NCBI GenBank assembly: GCA_032718475.1
Contig: JAUCBJ010003533.1
Span: 1-35,414, forward strand
Length of the DNA: 35,414 nt
From: Nemertoderma westbladi
Lineage: Eukaryota; Animalia; Xenacoelomorpha
Direction: 5' to 3'
The position numbers were made by a program, and so were the translations under genes. Positions within the stretch are counted from its first letter, which is position 1. Every line of letters starts with the position of its first letter. The notes below the pieces were generated by a model. The model was not told the origin of the DNA. It saw only the letters and a list, made by a program, of their open reading frames with translations, and searched no databases. Shown here in pieces: positions 1-32,500 of the stretch.

Positions 1-3000
1 CATAATAGACAGTGGGTGGTTGTCTGTAAGGTAAACACATACCATAATAGACAGTGGGTGGTTGTCTGTAAGGTAAACACATACCATAATAGACAGTGGG
101 TGGTTGTCTGTAAGGTAAACACATACCATAATAGACAGTGGGTGGTTGTCTGTAAGGTAAACACATACCATAATAGACAGTGGGTGGTTGTCTGTAAGGT
201 AAACACATACCATAATAGACAGTGGGTGGTTGTCTGTAAGGTAAACACATACCATAATAGACAGTGGGTGGTTGTCTGTAAGGCTAAACACATACCATAA
301 TAGACAGTGGGTGGTTGTCTGTAAGGTAAACACATACCATAATAGACAGTGGGTGGTTGTCTGTAAGGTAAACACATACCATAATAGACAGTGGGTGGTT
401 GTCTGTAAGCTAAACACATACCATAATAGACAGTGGGTGGTTGTCTGTAAGGTAAACACATACCATAATAGACAGTGGGTGGTTGTCTGTAAGGTAAACA
501 CATACCATAATAGACAGTGGGTGGTTGTCTGTAAGGTAAACACATACCATAATAGACAGTGGGTGGTTGTCTGTAAGGTAAACACATACCATAATAGACA
601 GTGGGTGGTTGTCTGTAAGGCTAAACACATACCATAATAGACAGTGGGTGGTTGTCTGTAAGGTAAACACATACCATAATAGACAGTGGGTGGTTGTCTG
701 TAAGGTAAACACATACCATAATATAGACAGTGGGTGGTTGTCTGTAAGGTAAACACATACCATAATAGACAGTGGGTGGTTGTCTGTAAGGTAAACACAT
801 ACCATAATAGACAGTGGGTGGTTGTCTGTAAGGTAAACACATACCATAATAGACAGTGGGTGGTTGTCTGTAAGGTAAACACATACCATAATAGACAGTG
901 GGTGGTTGTCTGTAAGGCTAAACACATACCATAATAGACAGTGGGTGGTTGTCTGTAAGGTAAACACATACCATAATAGACAGTGGGTGGTTGTCTGTAA
1001 GCTAAACACATACCATAATAGACAGTGGGTGGTTGTCTGTAAGGTAAACACATACCATAATAGACAGTGGGTGGTTGTCTGTAAGGTAAACACATACCAT
1101 AATAGACAGTGGGTGGTTGTCTGTAAGGTAAACACATACCATAATAGACAGTGGGTGGTTGTCTGTAAGGTAAACACATACCATAATAGACAGTGGGTGG
1201 TTGTCTGTAAGGTAAACACATACCATAATAGACAGTGGGTGGTTGTCTGTAAGGTAAACACATACCATAATAGACAGTGGGTGGTTGTCTGTAAGGTAAA
1301 CACATACCATAATAGACAGTGGGTGGTTGTCTGTAAGCTAAACACATACCATAATAGACAGTGGGTGGTTGTCTGTAAGGTAAACACATACCATAATAGA
1401 CAGTGGGTGGTTGTCTGTAAGGCTAAACACATACCATAATAGACAGTGGGTGGTTGTCTGTAAGGTAAACACATACCATAATAGACAGTGGGTGGTTGTC
1501 TGTAAGGTAAACACATACCATAATAGACAGTGGGTGGTTGTCTGTAAGGCTAAACACATACCATAATAGACAGTGGGTGGTTGTCTGTAAGCTAAACACA
1601 TACCATAATAGACAGTGGGTGGTTGTCTGTAAGGTAAACACATACCATAATAGACAGTGGGTGGTTGTCTGTAAGGTAAACACATACCATAATAGACAGT
1701 GGGTGGTTGTCTGTAAGGTAAACACATACCATAATAGACAGTGGGTGGTTGTCTGTAAGGTAAACACATACCATAATAGACAGTGGGTGGTTGTCTGTAA
1801 GCTAAACACATACCATAATAGACAGTGGGTGGTTGTCTGTAAGGTAAACACATACCATAATAGACAGTGGGTGGTTGTCTGTAAGGTAAACACATACCAT
1901 AATAGACAGTGGGTGGTTGTCTGTAAGCTAAACACATACCATAATAGACAGTGGGTGGTTGTCTGTAAGCTAAACACATACCATAATAGACAGTGGGTGG
2001 TTGTCTGTAAGGTAAACACATACCATAATAGACAGTGGGTGGTTGTCTGTAAGCTAAACACATACCATAATAGACAGTGGGTGGTTGTCTGTAAGGTAAA
2101 CACATACCATAATAGACAGTGGGTGGTTGTCTGTAAGGTAAACACATACCATAATAGACAGTGGGTGGTTGTCTGTAAGCTAAACACATACCATAATTAG
2201 ACAGTGGGTGGTTGTCTGTAAGCTAAACACATACCATAATAGACAGTGGGTGGTTGTCTGTAAGGTAAACACATACCATAATAGACAGTGGGTGGTTGTC
2301 TGTAAGGTAAACACATACCATAATAGACAGTGGGTGGTTGTCTGTAAGGCTAAACACATACCATAATAGACAGTGGGTGGTTGTCTGTAAGGTAAACACA
2401 TACCATAATAGACAGTGGGTGGTTGTCTGTAAGGTAAACACATACCATAATAGACAGTGGGTGGTTGTCTGTAAGGTAAACACATACCATAATAGACAGT
2501 GGGTGGTTGTCTGTAAGGTAAACACATACCATAATAGACAGTGGGTGGTTGTCTGTAAGGTAAACACATACCATAATAGACAGTGGGTGGTTGTCTGTAA
2601 GGCTAAACACATACCATAATAGACAGTGGGTGGTTGTCTGTAAGCTAAACACATACCATAATAGACAGTGGGTGGTTGTCTGTAAGGTAAACACATACCA
2701 TAATAGACAGTGGGTGGTTGTCTGTAAGCTAAACACATACCATAATAGACAGTGGGTGGTTGTCTGTAAGGTAAACACATACCATAATAGACAGTGGGTG
2801 GTTGTCTGTAAGGTAAACACATACCATAATAGACAGTGGGTGGTTGTCTGTAAGGTAAACACATACCATAATAGACAGTGGGTGGTTGTCTGTAAGGTAA
2901 ACACATACCATAATAGACAGTGGGTGGTTGTCTGTAAGCTAAACACATACCATAATAGACAGTGGGTGGTTGTCTGTAAGGTAAACACATACCATAATAG

Positions 3001-6000
3001 ACAGTGGGTGGTTGTCTGTAAGGTAAACACATACCATAATAGACAGTGGGTGGTTGTCTGTAAGGTAAACACATACCATAATAGACAGTGGGTGGTTGTC
3101 TGTAAGGTAAACACATACCATAATAGACAGTGGGTGGTTGTCTGTAAGGTAAACACATACCATAATAGACAGTGGGTGGTTGTCTGTAAGGTAAACACAT
3201 ACCATAATAGACAGTGGGTGGTTGTCTGTAAGGTAAACACATACCATAATAGACAGTGGGTGGTTGTCTGTAAGGTAAACACATACCATAATAGACAGTG
3301 GGTGGTTGTCTGTAAGGTAAACACATACCATAATAGACAGTGGGTGGTTGTCTGTAAGGTAAACACATACCATAATAGACAGTGGGTGGTTGTCTGTAAG
3401 GTAAACACATACCATAATAGACAGTGGGTGGTTGTCTGTAAGGTAAACACATACCATAATAGACAGTGGGTGGTTGTCTGTAAGGTAAACACATACCATA
3501 ATAGACAGTGGGTGGTTGTCTGTAAGGTAAACACATACCATAATAGACAGTGGGTGGTTGTCTGTAAGGTAAACACATACCATAATAGACAGTGGGTGGT
3601 TGTCTGTAAGGTAAACACATACCATAATAGACAGTGGGTGGTTGTCTGTAAGGTAAACACATACCATAATAGACAGTGGGTGGTTGTCTGTAAGGTAAAC
3701 ACATACCATAATAGACAGTGGGTGGTTGTCTGTAAGGTAAACACATACCATAATAGACAGTGGGTGGTTGTCTGTAAGGTAAACACATACCATAATAGAC
3801 AGTGGGTGGTTGTCTGTAAGGTAAACACATACCATAATAGACAGTGGGTGGTTGTCTGTAAGGTAAACACATACCATAATAGACAGTGGGTGGTTGTCTG
3901 TAAGGTAAACACATACCATAATAGACAGTGGGTGGTTGTCTGTAAGGTAAACACATACCATAATAGACAGTGGGTGGTTGTCTGTAAGGTAAACACATAC
4001 CATAATAGACAGTGGGTGGTTGTCTGTAAGGTAAACACATACCATAATAGACAGTGGGTGGTTGTCTGTAAGGTAAACACATACCATAATAGACAGTGGG
4101 TGGTTGTCTGTAAGGTAAACACATACCATAATAGACAGTGGGTGGTTGTCTGTAAGGTAAACACATACCATAATAGACAGTGGGTGGTTGTCTGTAAGGT
4201 AAACACATACCATAATAGACAGTGGGTGGTTGTCTGTAAGGTAAACACATACCATAATAGACAGTGGGTGGTTGTCTGTAAGGCTAAACACATACCATAA
4301 TAGACAGTGGGTGGTTGTCTGTAAGGTAAACACATACCATAATAGACAGTGGGTGGTTGTCTGTAAGGTAAACACATACCATAATAGACAGTGGGTGGTT
4401 GTCTGTAAGCTAAACACATACCATAATAGACAGTGGGTGGTTGTCTGTAAGGTAAACACATACCATAATAGACAGTGGGTGGTTGTCTGTAAGGTAAACA
4501 CATACCATAATAGACAGTGGGTGGTTGTCTGTAAGGTAAACACATACCATAATAGACAGTGGGTGGTTGTCTGTAAGGTAAACACATACCATAATAGACA
4601 GTGGGTGGTTGTCTGTAAGGTAAACACATACCATAATAGACAGTGGGTGGTTGTCTGTAAGGTAAACACATACCATAATAGACAGTGGGTGGTTGTCTGT
4701 AAGGTAAACACATACCATAATAGACAGTGGGTGGTTGTCTGTAAGGTAAACACATACCATAATAGACAGTGGGTGGTTGTCTGTAAGGTAAACACATACC
4801 ATAATAGACAGTGGGTGGTTGTCTGTAAGGTAAACACATACCATAATAGACAGTGGGTGGTTGTCTGTAAGGTAAACACATACCATAATAGACAGTGGGT
4901 GGTTGTCTGTAAGGTAAACACATACCATAATAGACAGTGGGTGGTTGTCTGTAAGGTAAACACATACCATAATAGACAGTGGGTGGTTGTCTGTAAGGTA
5001 AACACATACCATAATAGACAGTGGGTGGTTGTCTGTAAGGTAAACACATACCATAATAGACAGTGGGTGGTTGTCTGTAAGGTAAACACATACCATAATA
5101 GACAGTGGGTGGTTGTCTGTAAGGTAAACACATACCATAATAGACAGTGGGTGGTTGTCTGTAAGGTAAACACATACCATAATAGACAGTGGGTGGTTGT
5201 CTGTAAGGTAAACACATACCATAATAGACAGTGGGTGGTTGTCTGTAAGGTAAACACATACCATAATAGACAGTGGGTGGTTGTCTGTAAGGTAAACACA
5301 TACCATAATAGACAGTGGGTGGTTGTCTGTAAGGTAAACACATACCATAATAGACAGTGGGTGGTTGTCTGTAAGGTAAACACATACCATAATAGACAGT
5401 GGGTGGTTGTCTGTAAGGTAAACACATACCATAATAGACAGTGGGTGGTTGTCTGTAAGGTAAACACATACCATAATAGACAGTGGGTGGTTGTCTGTAA
5501 GGTAAACACATACCATAATAGACAGTGGGTGGTTGTCTGTAAGGTAAACACATACCATAATAGACAGTGGGTGGTTGTCTGTAAGGTAAACACATACCAT
5601 AATAGACAGTGGGTGGTTGTCTGTAAGGTAAACACATACCATAATAGACAGTGGGTGGTTGTCTGTAAGGTAAACACATACCATAATAGACAGTGGGTGG
5701 TTGTCTGTAAGGTAAACACATACCATAATAGACAGTGGGTGGTTGTCTGTAAGGTAAACACATACCATAATAGACAGTGGGTGGTTGTCTGTAAGGTAAA
5801 CACATACCATAATAGACAGTGGGTGGTTGTCTGTAAGGTAAACACATACCATAATAGACAGTGGGTGGTTGTCTGTAAGGTAAACACATACCATAATAGA
5901 CAGTGGGTGGTTGTCTGTAAGGTAAACACATACCATAATAGACAGTGGGTGGTTGTCTGTAAGGTAAACACATACCATAATAGACAGTGGGTGGTTGTCT

Positions 6001-9000
6001 GTAAGGTAAACACATACCATAATAGACAGTGGGTGGTTGTCTGTAAGGTAAACACATACCATAATAGACAGTGGGTGGTTGTCTGTAAGGTAAACACATA
6101 CCATAATAGACAGTGGGTGGTTGTCTGTAAGGTAAACACATACCATAATAGACAGTGGGTGGTTGTCTGTAAGGTAAACACATACCATAATAGACAGTGG
6201 GTGGTTGTCTGTAAGGTAAACACATACCATAATAGACAGTGGGTGGTTGTCTGTAAGGTAAACACATACCATAATAGACAGTGGGTGGTTGTCTGTAAGG
6301 TAAACACATACCATAATAGACAGTGGGTGGTTGTCTGTAAGGTAAACACATACCATAATAGACAGTGGGTGGTTGTCTGTAAGGTAAACACATACCATAA
6401 TAGACAGTGGGTGGTTGTCTGTAAGGTAAACACATACCATAATAGACAGTGGGTGGTTGTCTGTAAGGTAAACACATACCATAATAGACAGTGGGTGGTT
6501 GTCTGTAAGGTAAACACATACCATAATAGACAGTGGGTGGTTGTCTGTAAGGTAAACACATACCATAATAGACAGTGGGTGGTTGTCTGTAAGGTAAACA
6601 CATACCATAATAGACAGTGGGTGGTTGTCTGTAAGGTAAACACATACCATAATAGACAGTGGGTGGTTGTCTGTAAGCTAAACACATACCATAATAGACA
6701 GTGGGTGGTTGTCTGTAAGGTAAACACATACCATAATAGACAGTGGGTGGTTGTCTGTAAGGTAAACACATACCATAATAGACAGTGGGTGGTTGTCTGT
6801 AAGGTAAACACATACCATAATAGACAGTGGGTGGTTGTCTGTAAGCTAAACACATACCATAATAGACAGTGGGTGGTTGTCTGTAAGGTAAACACATACC
6901 ATAATAGACAGTGGGTGGTTGTCTGTAAGGTAAACACATACCATAATAGACAGTGGGTGGTTGTCTGTAAGCTAAACACATACCATAATAGACAGTGGGT
7001 GGTTGTCTGTAAGGTAAACACATACCATAATAGACAGTGGGTGGTTGTCTGTAAGGTAAACACATACCATAATAGACAGTGGGTGGTTGTCTGTAAGGTA
7101 AACACATACCATAATAGACAGTGGGTGGTTGTCTGTAAGGTAAACACATACCATAATAGACAGTGGGTGGTTGTCTGTAAGGTAAACACATACCATAATA
7201 GACAGTGGGTGGTTGTCTGTAAGCTAAACACATACCATAATAGACAGTGGGTGGTTGTCTGTAAGGTAAACACATACCATAATAGACAGTGGGTGGTTGT
7301 CTGTAAGGTAAACACATACCATAATAGACAGTGGGTGGTTGTCTGTAAGGTAAACACATACCATAATAGACAGTGGGTGGTTGTCTGTAAGGTAAACACA
7401 TACCATAATAGACAGTGGGTGGTTGTCTGTAAGGTAAACACATACCATAATAGACAGTGGGTGGTTGTCTGTAAGCTAAACACATACCATAATAGACAGT
7501 GGGTGGTTGTCTGTAAGGTAAACACATACCATAATAGACAGTGGGTGGTTGTCTGTAAGGTAAACACATACCATAATAGACAGTGGGTGGTTGTCTGTAA
7601 GCTAAACACATACCATAATAGACAGTGGGTGGTTGTCTGTAAGGTAAACACATACCATAATAGACAGTGGGTGGTTGTCTGTAAGGTAAACACATACCAT
7701 AATAGACAGTGGGTGGTTGTCTGTAAGGTAAACACATACCATAATAGACAGTGGGTGGTTGTCTGTAAGCTAAACACATACCATAATAGACAGTGGGTGG
7801 TTGTCTGTAAGGTAAACACATACCATAATAGACAGTGGGTGGTTGTCTGTAAGGTAAACACATACCATAATAGACAGTGGGTGGTTGTCTGTAAGGTAAA
7901 CACATACCATAATAGACAGTGGGTGGTTGTCTGTAAGGTAAACACATACCATAATAGACAGTGGGTGGTTGTCTGTAAGGTAAACACATACCATAATAGA
8001 CAGTGGGTGGTTGTCTGTAAGGTAAACACATACCATAATAGACAGTGGGTGGTTGTCTGTAAGGTAAACACATACCATAATAGACAGTGGGTGGTTGTCT
8101 GTAAGGTAAACACATACCATAATAGACAGTGGGTGGTTGTCTGTAAGGTAAACACATACCATAATAGACAGTGGGTGGTTGTCTGTAAGGTAAACACATA
8201 CCATAATAGACAGTGGGTGGTTGTCTGTAAGGTAAACACATACCATAATAGACAGTGGGTGGTTGTCTGTAAGGTAAACACATACCATAATAGACAGTGG
8301 GTGGTTGTCTGTAAGGTAAACACATACCATAATAGACAGTGGGTGGTTGTCTGTAAGGTAAACACATACCATAATAGACAGTGGGTGGTTGTCTGTAAGG
8401 TAAACACATACCATAATAGACAGTGGGTGGTTGTCTGTAAGGTAAACACATACCATAATAGACAGTGGGTGGTTGTCTGTAAGCTAAACACATACCATAA
8501 TAGACAGTGGGTGGTTGTCTGTAAGGTAAACACATACCATAATAGACAGTGGGTGGTTGTCTGTAAGGTAAACACATACCATAATAGACAGTGGGTGGTT
8601 GTCTGTAAGGTAAACACATACCATAATAGACAGTGGGTGGTTGTCTGTAAGGTAAACACATACCATAATAGACAGTGGGTGGTTGTCTGTAAGGTAAACA
8701 CATACCATAATAGACAGTGGGTGGTTGTCTGTAAGGTAAACACATACCATAATAGACAGTGGGTGGTTGTCTGTAAGGTAAACACATACCATAATAGACA
8801 GTGGGTGGTTGTCTGTAAGGTAAACACATACCATAATAGACAGTGGGTGGTTGTCTGTAAGGTAAACACATACCATAATAGACAGTGGGTGGTTGTCTGT
8901 AAGGTAAACACATACCATAATAGACAGTGGGTGGTTGTCTGTAAGGTAAACACATACCATAATAGACAGTGGGTGGTTGTCTGTAAGGTAAACACATACC

Positions 9001-12000
9001 ATAATAGACAGTGGGTGGTTGTCTGTAAGGTAAACACATACCATAATAGACAGTGGGTGGTTGTCTGTAAGGTAAACACATACCATAATAGACAGTGGGT
9101 GGTTGTCTGTAAGGTAAACACATACCATAATAGACAGTGGGTGGTTGTCTGTAAGGTAAACACATACCATAATAGACAGTGGGTGGTTGTCTGTAAGGTA
9201 AACACATACCATAATAGACAGTGGGTGGTTGTCTGTAAGGTAAACACATACCATAATAGACAGTGGGTGGTTGTCTGTAAGGTAAACACATACCATAATA
9301 GACAGTGGGTGGTTGTCTGTAAGGTAAACACATACCATAATAGACAGTGGGTGGTTGTCTGTAAGGTAAACACATACCATAATAGACAGTGGGTGGTTGT
9401 CTGTAAGGTAAACACATACCATAATAGACAGTGGGTGGTTGTCTGTAAGGTAAACACATACCATAATAGACAGTGGGTGGTTGTCTGTAAGGTAAACACA
9501 TACCATAATAGACAGTGGGTGGTTGTCTGTAAGGTAAACACATACCATAATAGACAGTGGGTGGTTGTCTGTAAGGTAAACACATACCATAATAGACAGT
9601 GGGTGGTTGTCTGTAAGCTAAACACATACCATAATAGACAGTGGGTGGTTGTCTGTAAGGTAAACACATACCATAATAGACAGTGGGTGGTTGTCTGTAA
9701 GGTAAACACATACCATAATAGACAGTGGGTGGTTGTCTGTAAGGTAAACACATACCATAATAGACAGTGGGTGGTTGTCTGTAAGGTAAACACATACCAT
9801 AATAGACAGTGGGTGGTTGTCTGTAAGGTAAACACATACCATAATAGACAGTGGGTGGTTGTCTGTAAGGTAAACACATACCATAATAGACAGTGGGTGG
9901 TTGTCTGTAAGGTAAACACATACCATAATAGACAGTGGGTGGTTGTCTGTAAGGTAAACACATACCATAATAGACAGTGGGTGGTTGTCTGTAAGGTAAA
10001 CACATACCATAATAGACAGTGGGTGGTTGTCTGTAAGGTAAACACATACCATAATAGACAGTGGGTGGTTGTCTGTAAGGTAAACACATACCATAATAGA
10101 CAGTGGGTGGTTGTCTGTAAGGTAAACACATACCATAATAGACAGTGGGTGGTTGTCTGTAAGGTAAACACATACCATAATAGACAGTGGGTGGTTGTCT
10201 GTAAGGTAAACACATACCATAATAGACAGTGGGTGGTTGTCTGTAAGGTAAACACATACCATAATAGACAGTGGGTGGTTGTCTGTAAGGTAAACACATA
10301 CCATAATAGACAGTGGGTGGTTGTCTGTAAGGTAAACACATACCATAATAGACAGTGGGTGGTTGTCTGTAAGGTAAACACATACCATAATAGACAGTGG
10401 GTGGTTGTCTGTAAGGTAAACACATACCATAATAGACAGTGGGTGGTTGTCTGTAAGGTAAACACATACCATAATAGACAGTGGGTGGTTGTCTGTAAGG
10501 TAAACACATACCATAATAGACAGTGGGTGGTTGTCTGTAAGGTAAACACATACCATAATAGACAGTGGGTGGTTGTCTGTAAGGTAAACACATACCATAA
10601 TAGACAGTGGGTGGTTGTCTGTAAGGTAAACACATACCATAATAGACAGTGGGTGGTTGTCTGTAAGGTAAACACATACCATAATAGACAGTGGGTGGTT
10701 GTCTGTAAGGTAAACACATACCATAATAGACAGTGGGTGGTTGTCTGTAAGGTAAACACATACCATAATAGACAGTGGGTGGTTGTCTGTAAGGTAAACA
10801 CATACCATAATAGACAGTGGGTGGTTGTCTGTAAGGTAAACACATACCATAATAGACAGTGGGTGGTTGTCTGTAAGGTAAACACATACCATAATAGACA
10901 GTGGGTGGTTGTCTGTAAGGTAAACACATACCATAATAGACAGTGGGTGGTTGTCTGTAAGGTAAACACATACCATAATAGACAGTGGGTGGTTGTCTGT
11001 AAGGTAAACACATACCATAATAGACAGTGGGTGGTTGTCTGTAAGGTAAACACATACCATAATAGACAGTGGGTGGTTGTCTGTAAGGTAAACACATACC
11101 ATAATAGACAGTGGGTGGTTGTCTGTAAGGTAAACACATACCATAATAGACAGTGGGTGGTTGTCTGTAAGGTAAACACATACCATAATAGACAGTGGGT
11201 GGTTGTCTGTAAGGTAAACACATACCATAATAGACAGTGGGTGGTTGTCTGTAAGGTAAACACATACCATAATAGACAGTGGGTGGTTGTCTGTAAGGTA
11301 AACACATACCATAATAGACAGTGGGTGGTTGTCTGTAAGGTAAACACATACCATAATAGACAGTGGGTGGTTGTCTGTAAGGTAAACACATACCATAATA
11401 GACAGTGGGTGGTTGTCTGTAAGGTAAACACATACCATAATAGACAGTGGGTGGTTGTCTGTAAGGTAAACACATACCATAATAGACAGTGGGTGGTTGT
11501 CTGTAAGGTAAACACATACCATAATAGACAGTGGGTGGTTGTCTGTAAGGTAAACACATACCATAATAGACAGTGGGTGGTTGTCTGTAAGGTAAACACA
11601 TACCATAATAGACAGTGGGTGGTTGTCTGTAAGGTAAACACATACCATAATAGACAGTGGGTGGTTGTCTGTAAGGTAAACACATACCATAATAGACAGT
11701 GGGTGGTTGTCTGTAAGGTAAACACATACCATAATAGACAGTGGGTGGTTGTCTGTAAGGTAAACACATACCATAATAGACAGTGGGTGGTTGTCTGTAA
11801 GGTAAACACATACCATAATAGACAGTGGGTGGTTGTCTGTAAGGTAAACACATACCATAATAGACAGTGGGTGGTTGTCTGTAAGGTAAACACATACCAT
11901 AATAGACAGTGGGTGGTTGTCTGTAAGGTAAACACATACCATAATAGACAGTGGGTGGTTGTCTGTAAGGTAAACACATACCATAATAGACAGTGGGTGG

Positions 12001-14146
12001 TTGTCTGTAAGGTAAACACATACCATAATAGACAGTGGGTGGTTGTCTGTAAGGTAAACACATACCATAATAGACAGTGGGTGGTTGTCTGTAAGGTAAA
12101 CACATACCATAATAGACAGTGGGTGGTTGTCTGTAAGGTAAACACATACCATAATAGACAGTGGGTGGTTGTCTGTAAGGTAAACACATACCATAATAGA
12201 CAGTGGGTGGTTGTCTGTAAGGTAAACACATACCATAATAGACAGTGGGTGGTTGTCTGTAAGGTAAACACATACCATAATAGACAGTGGGTGGTTGTCT
12301 GTAAGGTAAACACATACCATAATAGACAGTGGGTGGTTGTCTGTAAGGTAAACACATACCATAATAGACAGTGGGTGGTTGTCTGTAAGGTAAACACATA
12401 CCATAATAGACAGTGGGTGGTTGTCTGTAAGGTAAACACATACCATAATAGACAGTGGGTGGTTGTCTGTAAGGTAAACACATACCATAATAGACAGTGG
12501 GTGGTTGTCTGTAAGGTAAACACATACCATAATAGACAGTGGGTGGTTGTCTGTAAGGTAAACACATACCATAATAGACAGTGGGTGGTTGTCTGTAAGG
12601 TAAACACATACCATAATAGACAGTGGGTGGTTGTCTGTAAGCTAAACACATACCATAATAGACAGTGGGTGGTTGTCTGTAAGGTAAACACATACCATAA
12701 TAGACAGTGGGTGGTTGTCTGTAAGGTAAACACATACCATAATAGACAGTGGGTGGTTGTCTGTAAGGTAAACACATACCATAATAGACAGTGGGTGGTT
12801 GTCTGTAAGGTAAACACATACCATAATAGACAGTGGGTGGTTGTCTGTAAGGTAAACACATACCATAATAGACAGTGGGTGGTTGTCTGTAAGGTAAACA
12901 CATACCATAATAGACAGTGGGTGGTTGTCTGTAAGGTAAACACATACCATAATAGACAGTGGGTGGTTGTCTGTAAGCTAAACACATACCATAATAGACA
13001 GTGGGTGGTTGTCTGTAAGGTAAACACATACCATAATAGACAGTGGGTGGTTGTCTGTAAGGTAAACACATACCATAATAGACAGTGGGTGGTTGTCTGT
13101 AAGCTAAACACATACCATAATAGACAGTGGGTGGTTGTCTGTAAGGTAAACACATACCATAATAGACAGTGGGTGGTTGTCTGTAAGGTAAACACATACC
13201 ATAATAGACAGTGGGTGGTTGTCTGTAAGGTAAACACATACCATAATAGACAGTGGGTGGTTGTCTGTAAGGTAAACACATACCATAATAGACAGTGGGT
13301 GGTTGTCTGTAAGGTAAACACATACCATAATAGACAGTGGGTGGTTGTCTGTAAGGTAAACACATACCATAATAGACAGTGGGTGGTTGTCTGTAAGGTA
13401 AACACATACCATAATAGACAGTGGGTGGTTGTCTGTAAGGTAAACACATACCATAATAGACAGTGGGTGGTTGTCTGTAAGGTAAACACATACCATAATA
13501 GACAGTGGGTGGTTGTCTGTAAGGTAAACACATACCATAATAGACAGTGGGTGGTTGTCTGTAAGGTAAACACATACCATAATAGACAGTGGGTGGTTGT
13601 CTGTAAGGTAAACACATACCATAATAGACAGTGGGTGGTTGTCTGTAAGGTAAACACATACCATAATAGACAGTGGGTGGTTGTCTGTAAGGTAAACACA
13701 TACCATAATAGACAGTGGGTGGTTGTCTGTAAGCTAAACACATACCATAATAGACAGTGGGTGGTTGTCTGTAAGGTAAACACATACCATAATAGACAGT
13801 AGGTGGTTGTCTGTAAGGTAAACACATACCATAATAGACAGTGGGTGGTTGTCTGTAAGGTAAACACATACCATAATAGACAGTGGGTGGTTGTCTGTAA
13901 GGTAAACACATACCATAATAGACAGTGGGTGGTTGTCTGTAAGGTAAACACATACCATAATAGACAATGGGTGGTTGTCTGTAAGGTAAACACATACCAT
14001 AATAGACAGTGGGTGGTTGTCTGTAAGCTAAACACATACCATAATAGACAGTGGGTGGTTGTCTGTAAGCTAAACACATACCATAATAGACAGTGGGTGG
14101 TTGTCTGTAAGGTAAACACATACCATAATAGACAGTGGGTGGTTGT
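1..14146. repeat. 42-bp minisatellite, about 336 near-identical copies; unit = last 23 nt of exon G + first 19 nt of the intron
   Basis: Plus-strand unit CATAATAGACAGTGGGTGGTTGTCTGTAAGGTAAACACATAC. The main variant is G>C (AAGGTAAA/AAGCTAAA). The array runs to the window start. Confidence 0.98.
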
Positions 14147-20500: not shown

Positions 20501-23500
20501 TATAATACAAACCTTTTTGTGATCGGCTATGGCCGCCACATGTAGCGAGTTATACAGATACAAACCTTTTTGTGACCGGCTATGGCCGCCACATGTAGCG
20601 AGTTATACAGATACAAATCTTTTTGTGACCGGCTATGGCCGCCACATGTAGCGAGTTATAATACAAACCTTTTTGTGATCGGCTATGGCCGCCACATGTA
20701 GCGAGTTATATAGATACAAACCTTTTTGTGACCGGCTATGGCCGCCACATGTAGCGAGTTTTACAGATACAAACCTTTTTGTGACCGGCTATGGCCGCCA
20801 CTTGTAGCGAGTTATACAGATACAAACCTTTTTGTGACCGGCTATGGCCGCCACATGTAGAGAGTTATACAGATACAAACCTTTTTGTGATCGGCTATGG
20901 TCGCCACATGTAGCGAGTTATACAGATACAAACCTTTTTGTGACCGGCTATGGCCGCCACATGTAGCGAGTTATACAGATACAAACCTTTTTGTGACCGG
21001 CTATGGCCGCCACTTGTAGCGAGTTATACAGATACAAACCTTTTTGTGACCGGCTATGGCCGCCACATGTAGCGAGTTATACAGATACAAACCTTTTTGT
21101 GACCGGCTATGGCCGCCACATGTAGCGAGTTATACAGATACAAACCTTTTTGTGACCGGCTATGGCCGCCACATGTAGCGAGTTATAATACAAACCTTTT
21201 TGTGATCGGCTATGGCCGCCACATGTAGCGAGTTATACAGATACAAACCTTTTTGTGACCGGCTATGGCCGCCACATGTAGCGAGTTATACAGATACAAA
21301 CCTTTTTGTGACCGGCTGTGGCCGCCACATGTAGCGAGTTATAATACAAACCTTTTTGTAACCGGCTATGGCCGCCACATGTAGCGAGTTATACAGATAC
21401 AAACCTTTTTGTGACCAGCTATGGCCGCCACATGTAGCGAGTTTTACAGATACAAACCTTTTTGTGACCGGCTATGGCCGCCACATGTAGCGAGTTATAC
21501 AGATACAAACCTTTTTGTGATCGGCTATGGCCGCCACATGTAGCGAGTTATACAGATACAAACCTTTTTGTGACCGGCTATGGCCGCCACATGTAGCGAG
21601 TTATACAGATACAAACCTTTTTGTGACCGGCTATGGCCGCCACATGTAGCGAGTTATACAGATACAAACCTTTTTGTGATCGGCTATGGCCGCCACATGT
21701 AGCGAGTTATACAGATACAAACCTTTTTGTGACCGGCTATGGCCGCCACATGTAGCGAGTTATACAGATACAAACCTTTTTGTGACCGGCTATGGTCGCC
21801 ACATGTAGCGAGTTATACAGATACAAACCTTTTTGTGACCGGCTATGGCCGCCACTTGTAGCGAGTTATACAGATACAAACCTTTTTGTGACCGGCTATG
21901 GCCGCCACATGTAGCGAGTTATACAGATACAAACCTTTTTGTGACCGGCTATGGCCGCCACATGTAGCGAGTTTTACAGATACAAACCTTTTTGTGACCG
22001 GCTATGGCCGCCACATGTAGCGAGTTATACAGATACAAACCTTTTTGTGACCGGCTATGGCCGCCACTTGTAGCGAGTTATACAGATACAAACCTTTTTG
22101 TGACCGGCTATGGCCGCCCCATGTAGCGAGTTATACAGATACAAACCTTTTTGTGACCGGCTATGGCCGCCCCATGTAGCGAGTTATACAGATACAAACC
22201 TTTTTGTGACCGGCTATGGCCGCCACATGTAGCGAGTTATACAGATACAAACCTTTTTGTGACCGGCTATGGCCGCCACATGTAGCGAGTTTTACAGATA
22301 CAAACCTTTTTGTGACCGGCTATGGCCGCCACATGTAGCGAGTTATACAGATACAAACCTTTTTGTGACCGGCTATGGCCGCCCCATGTAGCGAGTTATA
22401 CAGATACAAACCTTTTTGTGACCGGCTATGGCCGCCACATGTAGCGAGTTATACAGATACAAACCTTTTTGTGACCGGCTATGGCCGCCCCATGTAGCGA
22501 GTTATACAGATACAAACCTTTTTGTGACCGGCATGGCCGCCACATGTAGCGAGTTTTACAGATACAAACCTTTTTGTGACCGGCTATGGCCGCCACATGT
22601 AGCGAGTTATACAGATACAAACCTTTTTGTGACCGGCATGGCCGCCACATGTAGCGAGTTTTACAGATACAAACCTTTTTGTGACCGGCTATGGCCGCCA
22701 CATGTAGCGAGTTATACAGATACAAACCTTTTTGTGACCGGCTATGGCCGCCACATGTATAGCGAGTTATACAGATACAAACCTTTTTGTGACCGGCTAT
22801 GGCCGCCACATGTAGCGAGTTTTACAGATACAAACCTTTTTGTGACCGGCTATGGCCGCCACATGTAGAGCCGTATTGGAATTCTCATCTTCGTCAGTAA
22901 TTATAGTTTTATCGTGTTTTATGAGTTCTTTAACAGCTCTAAAAATAAATACAATTAGAGATTGGGTGTCCTCAGCAGTTAGAGTGCAGTCTGTGCCACC
23001 CTGGAGGACTCCCATATTACTAAGAATGGATCTGTGCCACCCTGGAGGACTCCCATATTACTAAGAATGGATCTGTGCCACCCTGGACGACTCCCATATT
23101 ACTAAGAATGGATCTGTGCCACCCTGGAGGACTCCCATATTACTAAGAATGGATCTGTGCCACCCTGGAGGACTCCCATATTACCAAGAATGGATCTGTG
23201 CCACCCTGGAGGACTCCCATATTACTAAGAATGGATCTGTGCCACCCTGGAGGACTCCCATATTACTAAGAATGGATCTGTGCCACCCTGGACGACTCCC
23301 ATATTACTAAGAATGGATCTGTGCCACCCTGGAGGACTCCCATATTACTAAGAATGGATCTGTGCCACCCTGGAGGACTCCCATATTACTAAGAATGGAT
23401 CTGTGCCACCCTAGAGGACTCCCATATTACTAAGAATGGATCTGTGCCACCCTAGAGGACTCACATATTACTAAGAATGGATCTGTGCCACCCTGGAGGA

Positions 23501-26500
23501 CTCCCATATTATTAAGAATGGATCTGTGCCACCCTAGAGGACTCCCATATTACTAAGAATGGATCTGCGCCACCCTGGAGGACTCCCATTACTAAGAATG
23601 GATCTGTGCCACCCTAGAGGACTCACATATTACTAAGAATGGATCTGTGCCACCCTGGAGGACTCCCATATTATTAAGAATGGATCTGCGCCACCCTAGA
23701 GGACTCACATATTACTAAGAATGGATCTGTGCCACCCTGGAGGACTCCCATATTACTAAGAATGGATCTGTGCCACCCTGGAGGACTCCCATTACTAAGA
23801 ATGGATCTGCGCCACCCTAGAGGACTCACATATTACTAAGAATGGATCTGTGCCACCCTGGAGGACTCCCATATTATTAAGAATGGATCTGTGCCACCCT
23901 AGAGGACTCACATATTATTAAGAATGGATCTGTGCCACCCTGGAGGACTCCCATATTATTAAGAATGGATCTGCGCCACCCTAGAGGACTCACATATTAC
24001 TAAGAATGGATCTGTGCCACCCTGGAGGACTCCCATATTATTAAGAATGGATCTGTGCCACCCTGGAGGACTCCCATTACTAAGAATGGATCTGTGCCAC
24101 CCTAGAGGACTCACATATTACTAAGAATGGATCTGTGCCACCCTGGAGGACTCCCATATTATTAAGAATGGATCTGTGCCACCCTAGAGGACTCCCATAT
24201 TACTAAGAATGGATCTGCGCCACCCTGGAGGACTCACATATTACTAAGAATGGATCTGTGCCACCCTGGAGGACTCCCATATTACTAAGAATGGATCTGT
24301 GCCACCCTAGAGGACTCCCATATTACTAAGAATGGATCTGCGCCACCCTGGAGGACTCCCATTACTAAGAATGGATCTGTGCCACCCTAGAGGACTCACA
24401 TATTACTAAGAATGGATCTGTGCCACCCTGGAGGACTCCCATATTACTAAGAATGGATCTGTGCCACCCTAGAGGACTCCCATATTACTAAGAATGGATC
24501 TGCGCCACCCTGGAGGACTCCCATTACTAAGAATGGATCTGTGCCACCCTAGAGGACTCACATATTACTAAGAATGGATCTGTGCCACCCTGGAGGACTC
24601 CCATATTATTAAGAATGGATCTGTGCCACCCTGGAGGACTCCCATATTATTAAGAATGGATCTGTGCCACCCTAGAGGACTCACATATTACTAAGAATGG
24701 ATCTGTGCCACCCTGGAGGACTCCCATATTATTAAGAATGGATCTGTGCCACCCTGGAGGACTCCCATATTATTAAGAATGGATCTGCGCCACCCTAGAG
24801 GACTCACATATTACTAAGAATGGATCTGTGCCACCCTGGAGGACTCCCATATTATTAAGAATGGATCTGTGCCACCCTAGAGGACTCACATATTACTAAG
24901 AATGGATCTGTGCCACCCTAGAGGACTCACATATTACTAAGAATGGATCTGTGCCACCCTGGAGGACTCCCATATTATTAAGAATGGATCTGCGCCACCC
25001 TAGAGGACTCACATATTACTAAGAATGGATCTGTGCCACCCTGGAGAACTCCCATATTATTAAGAATGGATCTGTGCCACCCTAGAGGACTCACATATTA
25101 CTAAGAATGGATCTGTGCCACCCTGGAGGACTCCCATATTATTAAGAATGGATCTGCGCCACCCTGGAGGACTCCCATTACTAAGAATGGATCTGTGCCA
25201 CCCTAGAGGACTCACATATTACTAAGAATGGATCTGTGCCACCCTGGAGGACTCCCATATTATTAAGAATGGATCTGTGCCACCCTGGAGGACTCCCATA
25301 TTACTAAGAATGGATCTGTGCCACCCTAGAGGACTCCCATATTACTAAGAATGGATCTGTGCCACCCTGGAGGGCTCACATATTAATAAGAATGGATCTG
25401 TGCCACCCTGGAGGACTCCCATATTACTAAGAATGGATCTGTGCCACCCTGGAGGACTCCCATATTATTAAGAATGGATCTGTGCCACCCTGGAGGACTC
25501 CCATATTACTAAGAATGGATCTGCGCCACCCTGGAGGACTCCCATTACTAAGAATGGATCTGTGCCACCCTAGAGGACTCCCATATTACTAAGAATGGAT
25601 CTGTGCCACCCTGGAGGACTCCCATATTATTAAGAATGGATCTGCGCCACCCTGGAGGACTCCCATATTACTAAGAATGGATCTGTGCCACCCTAGAGGA
25701 CTCCCATATTACTAAGAATGGATCTGTGCCACCCTAGAGGACTCACATATTACTAAGAATGGATCTGTGCCACCCTAGAGGACTCCCATATTACTAAGAA
25801 TGGATCTGTGCCACCCTAGAGGACTCCCATATTACTAAGAATGGATCTGTGCCACCCTAGAGGACTCACATATTACTAAGAATGGATCTGTGCCATCCTG
25901 GAGGACTCCCATATTATTAAGAATGGATCTGTGCCACCCTAGAGGACTCCCATATTACTAAGAATGGATCTGTGCCACCCTAGAGGACTCCCATATTACT
26001 AAGAATGGATCTGTGCCACCCTAGAGGACTCCCATATTACTAAGAATGGATCTGTGCCACCCTAGAGGACTCACATATTACTAAGAATGGATCTGTGCCA
26101 CCCTGGAGGACTCCCATATTATTAAGAATGGATCTGTGCCACCCTGGAGGACTCCCATATTACTAAGAATGGATCTGCGCCACCCTGGAGGACTCCCATT
26201 ACTAAGAATGGATCTGCGCCACCCTGGAGGACTCCCATTACTAAGAATGGATCTGCGCCAGCCTGGAGGACTCCCATTACTAAGAATGGATCTGTGCCAC
26301 CCTAGAGGACTCCCATATTACTAAGAATGGATCTGTGCCACCCTAGAGGACTCCCATATTACCAAGAATGGATCTGTGCCACCCTAGAGGACTCACATAT
26401 TACTAAGAATGGATCTGTGCCACCCTGGAGGACTCCCATATTATTAAGAATGGATCTGTGCCACCCTGGAGGACTCCCATATTACTAAGAATGGAACTGT

Positions 26501-29500
26501 GCCACCCTGGAGGACTCCCATTACTAAGAATGGATCTGTGCCACCCTGAAGGACTCCCATATTACTAAGAATGGATCTATGCCACCCTGGAGGACTCCCA
26601 TATTACTAAGAATGGATCTGCGCCACCCTGGAGGACTCCCATTACTAAGAATGGATCTGTGCCACCCTAGAGGACTCACATATTACTAAGAATGGATCTG
26701 TGCCACCCTAGAGGACTCCCATATTACTAAGAATGGATCTGTGCCACCCTGGAGGACTCCCATATTATTAAGAATGGATCTGCGCCACCCTGGAGGACTC
26801 CCATTACTAAGAATGGATCTGTGCCACCCTAGAGGACTCACATATTACTAAGAATGGATCTGTGCCACCCTGGAGGATTCCCATATTACTAAGAATGGAT
26901 CTGTGCCACCCTAGAGGACTCCCATATTACTAAGAATGGATCTGTGCCACCCTAGAGGACTCCCATATTACTAAGAATGGATATGTGCAGCCACCAACAG
27001 TAAATTACCTATACTTTCCCGACGAAGCCGCCATATGTAACGGAGTTTTCTCTTCCTCATTCTTCTCATCGAGGTCGCCACCGAAGGATAGCAACGTCTT
27101 TATACAGTCGAGGTAACCCTTTTGAGCCGCTTTGTGCAAAGGCGTGTCCCCGTACTTATCTGGTTCATTAACCAGAGTAGAGTCGAATTGGAGGAGAAGC
27201 TACAGATAATAATAAATATATATAACGGGGGGTGGGGTGGGGATTAAGACATGTCAGGCACATTGATAACGTTCATGGGTGACAGATGTGGCCAATGAGT
27301 GTAATTAATTCATACTATAAATCAATTTAAACTATTCATTGCCATCGTCCTAATATTATCATCATAATTGTTATAAATTATTTAATAATTGATTACACCA
27401 CTTTGCAACTGACTGATTAATAAAGTTAATAATGCCGATTAGGTTTGAGACACTGCATTCCGGGAGTAAGATACCGATGGTGGGTCTGGGGACGTGGAAG
27501 AGCGAACCAGACGCCGTGGGGGAGGCCGTGACCGCAGCTATAGACGCAGGATACAGACTCATTGATTGCGCTTACTGTTACCGAAACGAGAAAGAGGTTG
27601 GCGAAGCCCTGAAAAGGGTCTTTAATGATCCGACAAAAGGGGTTTCTAGAAGCGATATATTCTTAACTTCTAAACTTTGGCGAACTCATCACCACCCAGA
27701 AGACGTGAGCACTTACTGCAGAGAAAGCGTCAGTAACCTCCAATGCGATTACTTGGATCTGTACCTCATGCACTGGCCGCTGGCGTTTAAACGTGGATCT
27801 TCTCTGCTACCGAAGGATCCAGAAGGATTTGTGGAAGTCGATGACACCGATTACATCACCACTTACAGGGCGATGGAAACATTAGTGGACGATGGTTTGT
27901 GTTTAAACATAGGAGTATCTAACTTCGGTTTGGAACAAATGGAACGGTTGGTAGAACATTCTAGAATTAAACCCAGCGTACTGCAGGTTGAATGCCATCC
28001 ATATCTCAACCAATCGAAGCTGCTATCTTACTGCCAATCACAGGGGATTGTGCTGGAGGCCTACTCCCCATTGGGCAGTCCAGCTAGGTCCTGGATGGCT
28101 TTATGCAAGGACCAACCAACACCACTACTTAGTCACCCAACGATACTGGAGATGTCCCATCGACTCCAACGCACCGTCGCACAGTTACTCATAAGATTCC
28201 AGATTCAACGAGGAGTGATTGTTATACCGAAGTCTGTCAACCCACAACGAATCTCCGAGAACTTTAACGTCTGGGATTTTCATTTAATTGACTCCGACAT
28301 GGAAACACTTACCAGACTGAACTGCAACCGTCGATTTATATTCCCCTTTGCCAAAGATGACGAGGGAAATCTGATGACCTGTCCGTCACAAGTTGGACAC
28401 AAATACTATCCATTCACGGACGACGGAACAGTTAACGTAACCTAATAAAATAGGCCTACTGTATCAGTACAAGGGAATGGAATATTCACGTATTATCGTT
28501 CAAAGTATAACATACACCTCCACTACCCAGTATAACACCCACATCCAGTACCCAGTATAACACCCGCTTCCAGCACCCAGTATAACACCCACGTCCAGTA
28601 CCCAGTATAACACCCACCTCCATCACCCAGTATAACACCCACCACTAGCACCCAGTATAACCTCCAGCACCCAGTATAACACCCACCTCCAGCACCCAGT
28701 ATAACACCCACCTCCAGCACCCAGTATAACACCCACTTCCAGCACCCAGTATAACACCCACCTCCAGCACCCAGTATAACACCCACCTCCAGCACAGCAC
28801 CCAGTGTAACACCCACCTCCAGCACCCAGTATAACACCCACCTATAGCACCCAGTATAACACGCACCTCCAGCACATAGTATAACACCCAATTCCAGCAC
28901 CCAGTATCACACCCACCTCCAGCACCCAGTATAACACCCACCTCCAGCACCCAGTATAACACCCACCTCCAACACCCAGTATAACACCCACCTCCAGCAC
29001 CCAGTATAACACCCACCTCCAGCACCCAGTATAACACCTACCTCCAGCACCCAGTATAACACCTACCTCCAGCACCCAGTATAACACCCACCTCCATCAC
29101 CCAGTATAACACCCACCTCCAGCACCCAGTATAACACCCACCTCCAGCACCCAGTATAACACCCACTTCCATCACCCAGTATAACACCCACCTCCAGCAC
29201 CCAGTATAACACCCACCCCCAGAACCCAGTATAACACCCACCTCCAGCACCCAGTATAACACCCACTTCCAGCACCCAGTATAACACCCACCTCTACCTC
29301 CAGCACCCAGTAAAACAGCCACCTCCAGTAACCAGTATAACACCCACCTCCAGCACCCAGTATAACACCCACTTCCAGCACCAAGTATAACACCTACCTC
29401 CAGCACCCAGTATAATACCCACCTCCAGCACACAGTATAACACCCACTTCCGGCACCCAGTATAACACCCAACTCCAGCACAGCACCCAGTGTAACACCC

Positions 29501-32500
29501 ACCTCCAGCACCCAGTATAACACCCACCTCCATTACCCAGTATAACACCCACCTCCAGCACCCAGTATAACACCTACCTCCAGCACCCAGTATAACACCC
29601 ACCTCCAGCACCCAGTATAACACCCACCTCCAGCACCCAGTATAACACCTACCTCCAGCACCCAGTATAACACACACCTCTAGCACCCAGTATAACACCC
29701 ACCACCAGTACCCAGTATAACACCTACCTCCAGCACCCAGTATAACACCCACCTCCAGCACCCAGTATAACACCCACCTCCAGCACCCAGTATAACACCT
29801 ACCTCCAGCACCCAGTATAACACCCACCTCCAGCACCCAGTATAACACCCACCTCCAGCACCCAGTATAACACCTACCTCCAGCACCCAGTATAACACCC
29901 ACCTCCAGCACCCAGTGTTACACCCACCTCCAGCACCCAGCACTCAGTGTTACACCCACCCCCAGCACCCAGAACCCAGTGTTACACCCACCTCCAGAAC
30001 CCAGTATAACACCCACTTCTAGCACCCAGTATTACACCCACCTCCAGCACCCAGTGTTACACCCACCTCCAGCACCCAGTATAACACCCACCTCCAGCAC
30101 CCAGTATAACACCCACCTCCAGCACCCAGTATAACACCCACTTCCAGCACCCAGTATAACACCCACCTCCAGCACCCAGTATAACACCCACTTCCAGTAC
30201 ACAGTATAACACCCACTTCCAGCACCCAGTATAACACCTACCTCCAGCACCCAGTATAACACCCACTTCCAGCACACAGTATAACACCCACCTCCAGCAC
30301 CCAGTATAACACCCACTTCCAGCACCCAGTATAACACCCACCTCCAGCACCCAGTATAACACCCGCTTCCAGTACCCAGTATAACACCCACTTCCAGCAC
30401 CCAGTATAACACCTACCCTCCAGCACCCAGTATAACACCCACTTCCAGCACCCAGTATAACACCCACTTCCAGCACCCAGTATAACACCCCCCTCCAGCA
30501 CCCAGTATAACACCCACTTCCAGCACCCAGTATAACACCCACTTCCAGCACCCAGTACCCAGTATAACAACCACCTCCAGCACCCAGTGTAACACCCACC
30601 TCCAGCACCCAGTATAACACCCACCTCCAGCACCCAGTACCCAGTATAACACCCACTTCCAGCACCCAGTACCCAGCACCCAGTATAACACCCACTTCCA
30701 GCACCCAGTATAACACCCACCTCCAGCACCCAGTACCCAGTATAACACCCACCTCCAGCACCCAGTATAACACCCACCTCCAGCACCCAGTACCCAGTGT
30801 AACACCCACCTATAGCACCCAGCACCCAGTATAACACCCACTTCCAGCACCCAGTATAACAACCACCTCCAGCACCCAGTGTAACACCCACCTCCAGCAC
30901 CCAGTATAACACCCACCTCCAGCACCCAGTACCCAGTATAACACCCACTTCCAGCACCCAGTACCCAGTATAACAACCACCTCCAGCACCCAGTATAACA
31001 CCCACCTCCAACACCCAGTACCCAGTATAACACCCACTTCCAGCACCCAGTACCCAGCACCCAGTATAACACCCACTTCCAGCACCCAGTATAACACCCA
31101 CCTCCAGCACCCAGTACCCAGTATAACACCCACTTCCAGCACCCAGTACCCAGTGTAACACCCACCTCCAGCACCCAGTATAACACCCACCTCCAGCACC
31201 CAGTACCCAGTATAACACCCACTTCCAGCACCCAGTACCCAGTGTAACACCCACCTCCAGCACCCAGTATAACAACCACCTCCAGCACCCAGTATAACAC
31301 CCACCTCCAACACCCAGTACCCAGTATAACACCCACTTCCAGCACCCAGTACCCAGCACCCAGTATAACACCCACTTCCAGCACCCAGTATAACACCCAC
31401 CTCCAGCACCCAGTATAACACCCACTTCCAGCACCCAGCACCCAGTATAACACCCACCTCCAGCACCCAGTACCCAGTATAACACCCACCTCCAGCACCC
31501 AGTACCCAGTGTAACACCCACCTCCAGCACCCAGTATAACACCCACTTCCAGCACCCAGTATAACACCCACTTCCAGCACCCAGCACCCAGTATAACACC
31601 CACCTCCAGCACCCAGTACCCAGTGTAACACCCACTTCCAGCACCCAGTATAACACCCACCTCCAGCACCCAGTATAACACCCACCTCCAACACCCAGCA
31701 CCCAGTATAACACCCACCTCCAGCACCCAGTATAACACCCACCTCCAACACCTAGTACCCAGTGTAACACCCACCTCCAGCACCCAGTATAACACCCACT
31801 TCCAGCACCCAGTATAACACCCACCTCCAGCACCCAGTATAACACCCACCTCCAACACCCAGTACCCAGTGTAACACCCACCTCCAGCACCCAGAACCCA
31901 GTATAACACCCACTCCCAGCACCCAGTATAACACCCACCTCCAGCACCCAGTATAACACCCACCTCCAACACCCAGTACCCAGTGTAACACCCACCCCCA
32001 GCACCCAGAACCCAGTATAACACCCACTTCCAGCACCCAGTATAACACCCACCTCCAGCACCCAGTATAACACCCACCTCCAGCACCCAGTACCCAGTGT
32101 AACACCCACCTCCAACACCCAGTACCCAGTATAACACCCACCTCCAGCACCCAGTGTAACACCCACCTCCAGCACTACACGTTGGTCCTCATCAGCCGCC
32201 CAGTAGATGGCGTTCTTATCATCGTAATCCACCGCCGATATGTCGGCTCCCAGTTTCAGTAACTCAGACACCGTGTCAGCGTGTCCGTTATACGCTGCAA
32301 CAATAAGCGGCGAACACCCGTCACTGTCGCGCTTCTCCATTTTAGCTTTTCTGTAACAAAGAAACACAATAATTGCAACCATAGCAGCAATGACAACAAC
32401 TGCACAATTAACCTAACTCAATATTAACTCAATATTAACTACATATAATTATTTTTAATAACTCGATTTAAATACAGTATAGCACTGTAGTTCACGCACG

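What the first reader, a model, noticed from the sequence alone, without database searches (positions are those of the whole stretch)
1..32175. Three introns of one gene begin with massive tandem amplifications of their own exon/5' splice-site junction
Seen in sequence: three unrelated arrays each start inside an exon and repeat the exon end plus the donor. They are 23+19 nt (exon G, about 336 copies), 33+20 nt (exon D, about 137 copies) and 9+16 nt (exon B, over 100 copies). No array spans an acceptor. Three independent units all straddling a donor is hard to explain by random minisatellite birth, because donors are a tiny target. Inference: a mutational process tied to 5' splice sites (for example transcription- or splicing-coupled pausing, R-loops, or rolling-circle-like amplification of a junction fragment) seeds intron-filling arrays. 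A selective filter is the alternative: duplications across a donor are tolerated because the first copy keeps the exon intact. Either way the spliceosome must pick the first of hundreds of near-identical donors. I do not know of this being described as a systematic feature, but cannot check the literature.
Basis: partly seen in the sequence, partly recalled or inferred. Interest (0 to 1): 0.9.

Follow-up and report, generated by a model that had tools for sequence, protein, structure and literature searches.

The report
Giant splice-donor minisatellites in TRPA-like gene
In an invertebrate ion-channel gene, the ends of three exons plus their splice signals are each repeated head to tail 140 to over 330 times into the next intron, yet the spliced transcript seen at two of them uses only the first signal, so these are likely harmless, unusually large examples of a repeat type already known from human and lancelet genes.

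Summary
Seven minus-strand exons join into a 454-aa stop-free TRPA1-like ankyrin channel. Three unrelated arrays start inside exons G, D and B and repeat exon end plus donor: 42 nt x at least 336, 53 x 138, 25 x about 140. A spliced contig from run X4 has one copy of the D and G exon ends, so the first donor is used; B was not checked with reads. DNA runs of two studies hold the D head-to-tail joint. The type is known: human F7, CBS, LMNB2, ABCA7 (up to 427 units) and lancelet 'mirages'. This scan already noted it on other DNA, at donors and at acceptors. Donors are not a tiny target here: 4-10% per array after a selective filter; P(at least 3 of 6) = 0.008, or 0.06 for any splice site, before post-hoc selection. 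Best reading: ordinary duplication, tolerance, then block-wise expansion. Donor-biased mutation is untested; no genome was held.

The parts
1..14146 (-). Array G: 42-nt unit = last 23 nt of exon G + first 19 nt of the intron; at least 336 copies (runs off the window); 296 of 336 units identical
14124..14514 (-). Exon G (391 nt) of the TRPA1-like gene; donor confirmed by the spliced contig of X4
14826..14962 (-). Exon F (137 nt); the 311-nt F-G intron is skipped in X4
15057..15212 (-). Exon E (156 nt); the 94-nt E-F intron is skipped in X4
15605..22868 (-). Array D: 53-nt unit = last 33 nt of exon D + first 20 nt of the intron; 138 copies; block-duplicated variants; 392 nt of unique intron follow
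   Evidence: head-to-tail joint in DNA runs X1-X3
22836..22938 (-). Exon D (103 nt); one copy of its end is joined to exon E in X4
22990..26988 (-). Array C: 41-nt unit, 98 copies, wholly intronic, starts 20-25 nt after the exon C donor; internal control, not donor-spanning
27009..27199 (-). Exon C (191 nt)
28504..32175 (-). Array B: 25-nt unit = last 9 nt of exon B + first 16 nt of the intron; 136-140 copies, with 32- and 39-nt variants; 1,304 nt of unique intron follow
32167..32350 (-). Exon B (184 nt), ankyrin repeat; donor inferred from reading frame and homolog alignment, not from reads
32810..33005 (-). Exon A (196 nt), the first exon inside the window
33418..34481 (.). 46-nt minisatellite in the intron upstream of exon A, about 410 nt from the acceptor; spans no splice site
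34888..35414 (.). 44-nt minisatellite in the same upstream intron; its start lies outside the window, so its relation to the upstream donor cannot be seen

Best explanation
These are splice-donor-spanning minisatellites ('mirages') in a TRPA1-like gene, likely seeded by ordinary short tandem duplications, likely kept because the first copy leaves the exon and its donor intact, and likely grown to kilobases by stepwise slippage and unequal exchange. Step 1 (inferred): short duplications arise often in this gene, which has six unrelated arrays in about 2.6 kb of collapsed non-coding DNA. Step 2 (inferred): duplications wholly inside coding DNA are purged, while those that straddle a donor add sequence only to the intron. 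Step 3 (shown for D and G in one run, at contig sensitivity; inferred for B): the spliceosome uses the most upstream donor, as shown experimentally for human F7. Step 4 (predicted): leakage to later donors mostly gives frameshifts or stops that nonsense-mediated decay would clear; B is the exception. Step 5 (block structure shown for D, mechanism inferred): the arrays expand by block duplication like any minisatellite. No function is needed.
For: Spliced X4 contig (2,843 nt, depth 208): unique exon D sequence, one copy of the repeated exon end, then exons E, F, G and a downstream exon that, read by hand, continues the TRPA alignment. X4 shows no 53-nt back-joint, and its depth in the two array bins (57.8 and 7.7) equals the share of that one contig (homolog continuation). 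Non-donor arrays of like size exist in the same gene (C, 4.0 kb). Donor target is 4-10% per array under the filter. D array: repeated 11-unit block, 0 of 200 shuffles; B array: 25/32/39-nt unit variants. Decoy donors are not knocked out near the exon: the 9 dead D donors are units 43-89. Of the first 40 donors, only donor 1 at D and donors 1-2 at G are in frame and stop-free. Precedent: F7, CBS, 6-16, LMNB2, PDGF (PMC1557585); ABCA7 12-427 units with about 2% use of donor 2 (PMC5954066); lancelet mirages at both boundary types (PMC3087553, PMC3902484).
Against: Even with the filter, at least 3 of 6 arrays on donors has P = 0.008. All four arrays in introns B, C, D and G begin at or within 25 nt of a donor and none at an acceptor, which random seeding does not predict well. 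At B, 11 later donors among the first 40 are in frame and stop-free, so decay would not clear leakage there. The D donor core (-3..+6) has 2 distinct changes in 9 positions against 25 in 44 elsewhere (about P = 0.14 by a hand binomial), a weak lean toward keeping donors. The C array shows no block structure (80 of 200 shuffles reach it), and G is too uniform to test. The first-donor evidence is one run of contigs, which drop rare isoforms.
Confidence: 0.68

Rival explanations
1. A mutational or expansion bias tied to 5' splice sites: polymerase pausing, R-loops or breaks at exon ends would seed duplications at donors more often than elsewhere in this lineage.
For: 3 of 6 arrays on donors, P = 0.008 after the filter; a fourth starts 20-25 nt after a donor; none on an acceptor. 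The five human genes listed in PMC1557585 are all donor cases. PMC3087553 calls the generating mechanism unclear.
Against: One gene picked after the fact; any-splice-site P = 0.059 and 3:0 P = 0.125. Lancelet mirages hit both boundaries. Unchecked scan notes report acceptor arrays in other genomes, including four in one gene and one genome with donors hit as often as acceptors. The B unit is G-rich on the sense strand (46% G, 9% C) but D is balanced and G is C-rich, so there is no common R-loop signature.
Confidence: 0.15
2. Donor-bearing units are selectively allowed to grow large because each carries a U1 snRNP site that would protect the lengthening intron from premature cleavage and polyadenylation (telescripting; the concept is recalled, not from a call).
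For: The two longest arrays (at least 14.1 kb and 7.3 kb) are donor arrays; GT is kept in 336 of 336, 129 of 138 and 130 of 136 units; 23 of 96 units of the non-donor C array carry a GTGAGT variant.
Against: Non-donor array C (4.0 kb) is longer than donor array B (3.7 kb). None of the six arrays has AATAAA or ATTAAA on the sense strand, so there is nothing inside them to suppress. Donor-core conservation is not significant. One literature search returned one off-topic listing.
Confidence: 0.07
3. The arrays exist, but their extreme lengths, G above all, are inflated or distorted by the assembly.
For: G is 88% identical units; all 10 indel-bearing G units lie at unit 235 or later, and 8 look like a merge of the two common variants, as consensus errors would (inference). 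Array-contig depth over flank depth is about 10 in X3 and about 50 in X2, far below 336 (the tool says depth is no copy number). No laid piece spans an array.
Against: The D head-to-tail joint is present in DNA runs of two studies, and G-unit contigs are at well above flank depth in them. D and B carry rich, ordered variant patterns that an assembler would not invent. This rival touches copy number only, not the donor-spanning anatomy.
Confidence: 0.07
4. One-step rolling-circle or RNA-templated amplification of a junction fragment made each array.
For: G is nearly uniform (296 of 336 identical); each unit is an exon-end/intron-start fragment as in pre-mRNA.
Against: Shared variants recur in ordered blocks in D (0 of 200 shuffles) and B has nested 7-nt sub-duplications; both need successive duplications. 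The first unit is the gene's own exon end in place, as a local tandem duplication gives.
Confidence: 0.03

Closest known systems
Human F7 intron 7 37-bp VNTR, and the CBS IVS13, 6-16, LMNB2 and PDGF minisatellites listed with it (PMC1557585; seen: abstract, introduction, start of results, and passages of results and discussion)
   Same: First unit spans the exon-intron boundary; the donor is reiterated in the intron; the most upstream donor is used.
   Different: 5-25 copies there against 138 to over 336 here; one array per gene as described, three here; CBS and 6-16 also use the next one or two donors.
Human ABCA7 intron 18 25-bp VNTR (PMC5954066; seen: passages)
   Same: Includes the exon's donor in each unit; 12 to about 427 units, up to 10.7 kb, so the scale here has a precedent; first donor dominant, about 2% use of the second.
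   Different: Its unit begins at the GT rather than well inside the exon; length affects skipping of the next exon and expression, untested here; single array.
Lancelet 'mirage' minisatellites: Adh3, globins BflGb6/BflGb9, troponin C, PGBD5 (PMC3087553 and PMC3902484, passages seen; the Adh3 paper itself was not held, and is known to me only through these citations)
   Same: Invertebrate; tandem copies of an exon-intron boundary; units of 10-72 bp in Adh3; normal splicing retained; length unstable.
   Different: Both 5' and 3' boundaries are hit; 3-6 copies in the globin case against hundreds here. Whether Adh3 has several arrays in one gene I could not see.
TRPA1-homolog ankyrin ion channels of invertebrates (host gene)
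   Same: 54% identity over 454 aa to an Owenia fusiformis protein whose best solved relatives are TRPA1; next relatives are named TRPA1 homolog in hemichordate, echinoderms, brachiopod, priapulid-type and shrimp records.
   Different: No relative above 54%, so the animal's lineage is not determined; only the ankyrin and pre-membrane part is in the window.

Membership tests
Donor-spanning minisatellite / mirage | Tandem unit of minisatellite size whose first copy spans an exon-intron boundary | tested here: met
   42, 53 and 25 nt units starting 23, 33 and 9 nt inside exons G, D, B
Donor-spanning minisatellite / mirage | Splice signal reiterated in the downstream copies | tested here: met
   GT kept in 336 of 336, 129 of 138 and 130 of 136 units
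Donor-spanning minisatellite / mirage | Normal mRNA made from the authentic first donor (arrays D and G) | tested here: met
   X4 spliced contig carries one copy of each exon end; one run, contigs only
Donor-spanning minisatellite / mirage | Normal mRNA made from the authentic first donor (array B) | tested here: inconclusive
   No reads seen on exon B; frame and homolog alignment fit donor 1, but 11 later donors are also in frame
Donor-spanning minisatellite / mirage | Length polymorphism or instability between alleles | tested here: inconclusive
   Array-contig depth differs several-fold between runs of like flank depth, but contig depth is no copy number
   No genome held; no other notes on this genome; single-gene test suggestive only
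Intron gain by tandem duplication (AG|GT proto-splice site) | The array itself forms the intron, donor in the first copy and acceptor in the last | tested here: not met
   392 nt (D) and 1,304 nt (B) of unique intron with their own acceptors follow the arrays; the far end of G is outside the window
TRPA1-like channel (host gene) | Ankyrin array followed by the pre-membrane segment, collinear with TRPA1 homologs | tested here: met
TRPA1-like channel (host gene) | Six-helix ion-transport domain | not testable with these tools
   Lies beyond the window; present in the closest homolog P0121

The most novel reading that the evidence does not exclude
In this animal lineage, 5' splice sites are hotspots for seeding or enlarging minisatellites, so that many introns begin with kilobases of copies of their own donor junction (four arrays fill 88% of this gene's span in the window). 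Transcription- or U1-coupled events would then be a driver of intron and genome growth, and the genome a natural test bed for how the spliceosome picks the first of hundreds of identical donors.
Probability: 0.18. Interest if true: 0.7.

Novelty: new member of a known kind. Interest (0 to 1): 0.32.

Why it matters
As it stands, it extends a known repeat type to an extreme case: three donor arrays in one gene, one at least 14 kb with 336 intact donors, and still a normal transcript at the two sites checked. That supports a strict first-donor rule in an invertebrate and warns annotators: the B array gives a spurious 714-aa ORF. If a genome-wide donor excess were found, it would address the open question of how mirages arise, which PMC3087553 calls unclear.

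Tried and rejected
No whole genome is held, so the decisive enrichment test was not run. No RNA holder was listed by record; X4 is labelled 'DNA?' and I read it as RNA because it skips introns at canonical ends and has zero depth in unique intron bins. A processed gene copy would also give a spliced contig, but would not explain the missing intron cover. No reads were obtained for exons A-B, so the B donor rests on frame and homology. 15528-15581 had no cover in any of the 4 runs, and 15474-15527 next to none; a hole proves nothing. Contig depth as copy number: rejected, kept as a hint only. The metagenome scan gave 2 loci at 28% identity, not orthologs, so no orthologous introns could be compared. 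The nested reductase and exon G found no close relative to place the organism. tblastn of 4 homologs found no further exon in 33006-35414 (best E 1.3). ARAGORN found 0 tRNA genes. A 'stop fuse' reading of the TAG variant in G units 2 and 3 was dropped: 37 of 336 units carry it. Nine paper searches listed no genome-wide test of donor versus acceptor enrichment; the library lacks most subscription papers, so this is not proof of absence. PMC10078293 (passages) and PMC12783039 (passages) did not bear on donor-spanning arrays; other listed papers were seen as listings only. No supplements were read; those of the lancelet and ABCA7 papers may bear on copy numbers. Scan-note look-ups by sequence and for enrichment tests returned nothing.
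Full report
Observation. TRF finds six large arrays covering 30,672 of 35,414 nt. Reading the minus strand at the array edges shows seven exons, A 33005-32810, B 32350-32167, C 27199-27009, D 22938-22836, E 15212-15057, F 14962-14826 and G 14514-14124, all with AG/GT ends. Joined, they give 454 codons with no stop in one of three frames (my first try had two donor coordinates off by 1-2 nt and was corrected). The product aligns over its whole length with four invertebrate ankyrin channels, best 54% to an Owenia protein, with every junction in register. That protein's best solved relatives are TRPA1, and ten further relatives looked up are mostly named TRPA1 homolog. The host is an invertebrate animal; no relative exceeds 54% among the 85 long homologs compared, so its lineage is not determined.

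The units share no more than 9 nt with each other. The donor GT is intact in 336 of 336, 129 of 138 and 130 of 136 units. So 3 of 6 arrays straddle a donor and none a real acceptor.

Are the arrays and the splice sites real? Four of six listed public runs hold the E-F-G stretch, and I laid those four on 14070-15660. X4 has one 2,843-nt contig (depth 208) that skips the 311-nt and 94-nt introns at canonical ends and has no cover in unique intron bins; I infer it is RNA although it is not on record as such. Upstream of exon E this contig holds exactly one copy of the repeated exon D end, preceded by unique exon D sequence. Downstream of exon G it leaves the genome two letters into the first donor (the next exon also starts with GT) and goes on in a frame that, read by hand, matches the homologs' continuation shown. 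X4 has no 53-nt back-joint, and its depth in the two array bins equals that contig's share. The first donor is therefore used at D and G, at the sensitivity of contigs, which drop rare isoforms. No reads were obtained for B. DNA runs X1 and X3 (one study) and X2 (another) all show the D head-to-tail joint and G-unit contigs above flank depth. One study may be the assembly's source, which leaves at least one independent. Depth ratios (about 10 and 50 for G) are far below 336, but the tool states depth is no copy number. Ten indel-bearing G units all lie at unit 235 or later, so the assembled length of G may be imprecise.

Is three donors more than chance? With each array collapsed to one unit the window is 4,993 nt, of which 1,358 are exon and 1,014 a nested reductase gene. 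The unexpanded introns are short (94, 311 and 459 nt where no array sits). A seed lands on a donor with probability 2-6%, or 4-10% once seeds wholly in coding DNA are removed. P(at least 3 of 6 on donors) is 0.0014 and 0.008; for any splice site 0.012 and 0.059; a 3:0 split has P = 0.125. This is suggestive, and the fourth array starting just after a donor adds to it. But the window was singled out from a very large scan for this very pattern, so it cannot carry a genome-wide claim. No genome is held and the scan has no other notes on it.

How the arrays grew. The D array repeats an 11-unit block of variants, which 0 of 200 shuffles reach; the C array shows no such block (80 of 200). B has 25-, 32- and 39-nt units. 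This points to successive duplications, not one-step rolling-circle copying. At D the two ends share 2 nt, and a 5-nt word lies at both ends; at C the left flank resembles the unit end. That fits slippage or microhomology seeding but is weak. Selection has not silenced the decoys: the nine dead D donors are units 43-89. Nor has it clearly preserved them: 2 distinct changes in 9 core positions against 25 in 44. Use of a later donor would give a frameshift or stop at D for all of donors 2-40 and at G for donors 3-40; at B, 11 of donors 2-40 stay in frame without a stop, which counts against a simple decay safety net there.

Comparison with what is known. PMC1557585 (abstract, introduction, passages) describes minisatellites whose first unit spans a donor in human F7, CBS, 6-16, LMNB2 and PDGF, and shows by mutagenesis that the most upstream functional donor is chosen. 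PMC5954066 (passages) gives the scale precedent: the ABCA7 VNTR includes the exon 18 donor, has 12 to about 427 units and up to 10.7 kb, and the second donor is used about 2% of the time. PMC3087553 and PMC3902484 (passages) describe lancelet 'mirages' at both 5' and 3' boundaries that do not disturb splicing, and call their origin unclear. The Adh3 paper was not held. The scan's own unchecked notes list 20 donor-type and 10 acceptor-type word matches on other DNA (8 of each shown), including multi-array genes at acceptors; I used them as leads only. Nine searches listed no genome-wide donor-versus-acceptor test, which does not show that none exists.

Verdict. The arrays work like, and meet the tested defining features of, donor-spanning minisatellites. 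What is unusual is size and multiplicity: three in one gene, with four arrays filling 88% of the gene span in the window. I put 0.68 on ordinary duplication plus selective tolerance plus block expansion, 0.15 on donor-biased mutation, 0.07 on U1-permitted growth, 0.07 on inflated assembly lengths and 0.03 on one-step amplification. Novelty: new member of a known kind. Interest 0.32; 0.7 if a genome-wide donor excess were shown.

Noticed in passing
window 27432-28445 (+): Intronless 337-aa aldo-keto reductase ORF (PF00248, E 1e-53; about 50% to AKR1A1/B1 proteins) nested antisense in intron B of the channel gene; possibly a retrocopy; expression not checked.
   Followed up: partly
window 14643-14710: tRNA-like dispersed repeat in the F-G intron: very high contig depth in all 4 runs with many loose ends, not called as a tRNA; likely a tRNA-derived SINE.
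   Followed up: partly
window about 15366-15473: A second high-copy dispersed element in the unique part of intron D; not identified.
   Followed up: no
window 22835-22830 and 15212-15207: The first six letters of intron D equal the first six letters of exon E, and the exon after G also starts with GT, so both junctions are slide-ambiguous, as at proto-splice sites.
   Followed up: partly
window 1-14146: Each G unit is a 19-nt GT...CAG piece plus a 23-nt exon piece; the common unit is 14 open codons, and 37 of 336 units, including units 2 and 3, carry an in-frame TAG, leaving donor 2 as the only in-frame alternative.
   Followed up: yes
window 22990-26988: 23 of 96 units of the non-donor C array carry a variant that makes a consensus-like GTGAGT.
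   Followed up: partly
window 30238-32382 (-): A 714-aa ORF runs from exon B through the B array; a likely annotation trap, not a protein.
   Followed up: partly
window 34888-35414: The 44-nt array is built of two related 22-nt halves with a near-palindromic core and is open in several frames; whether it starts at the upstream exon's donor cannot be seen.
   Followed up: partly
window 14070-15660: Runs X1 and X3, filed as one sample, differ at several single letters and about 40-fold in summed depth over the G unit at equal flank depth; unexplained, and depth is no copy number.
   Followed up: no
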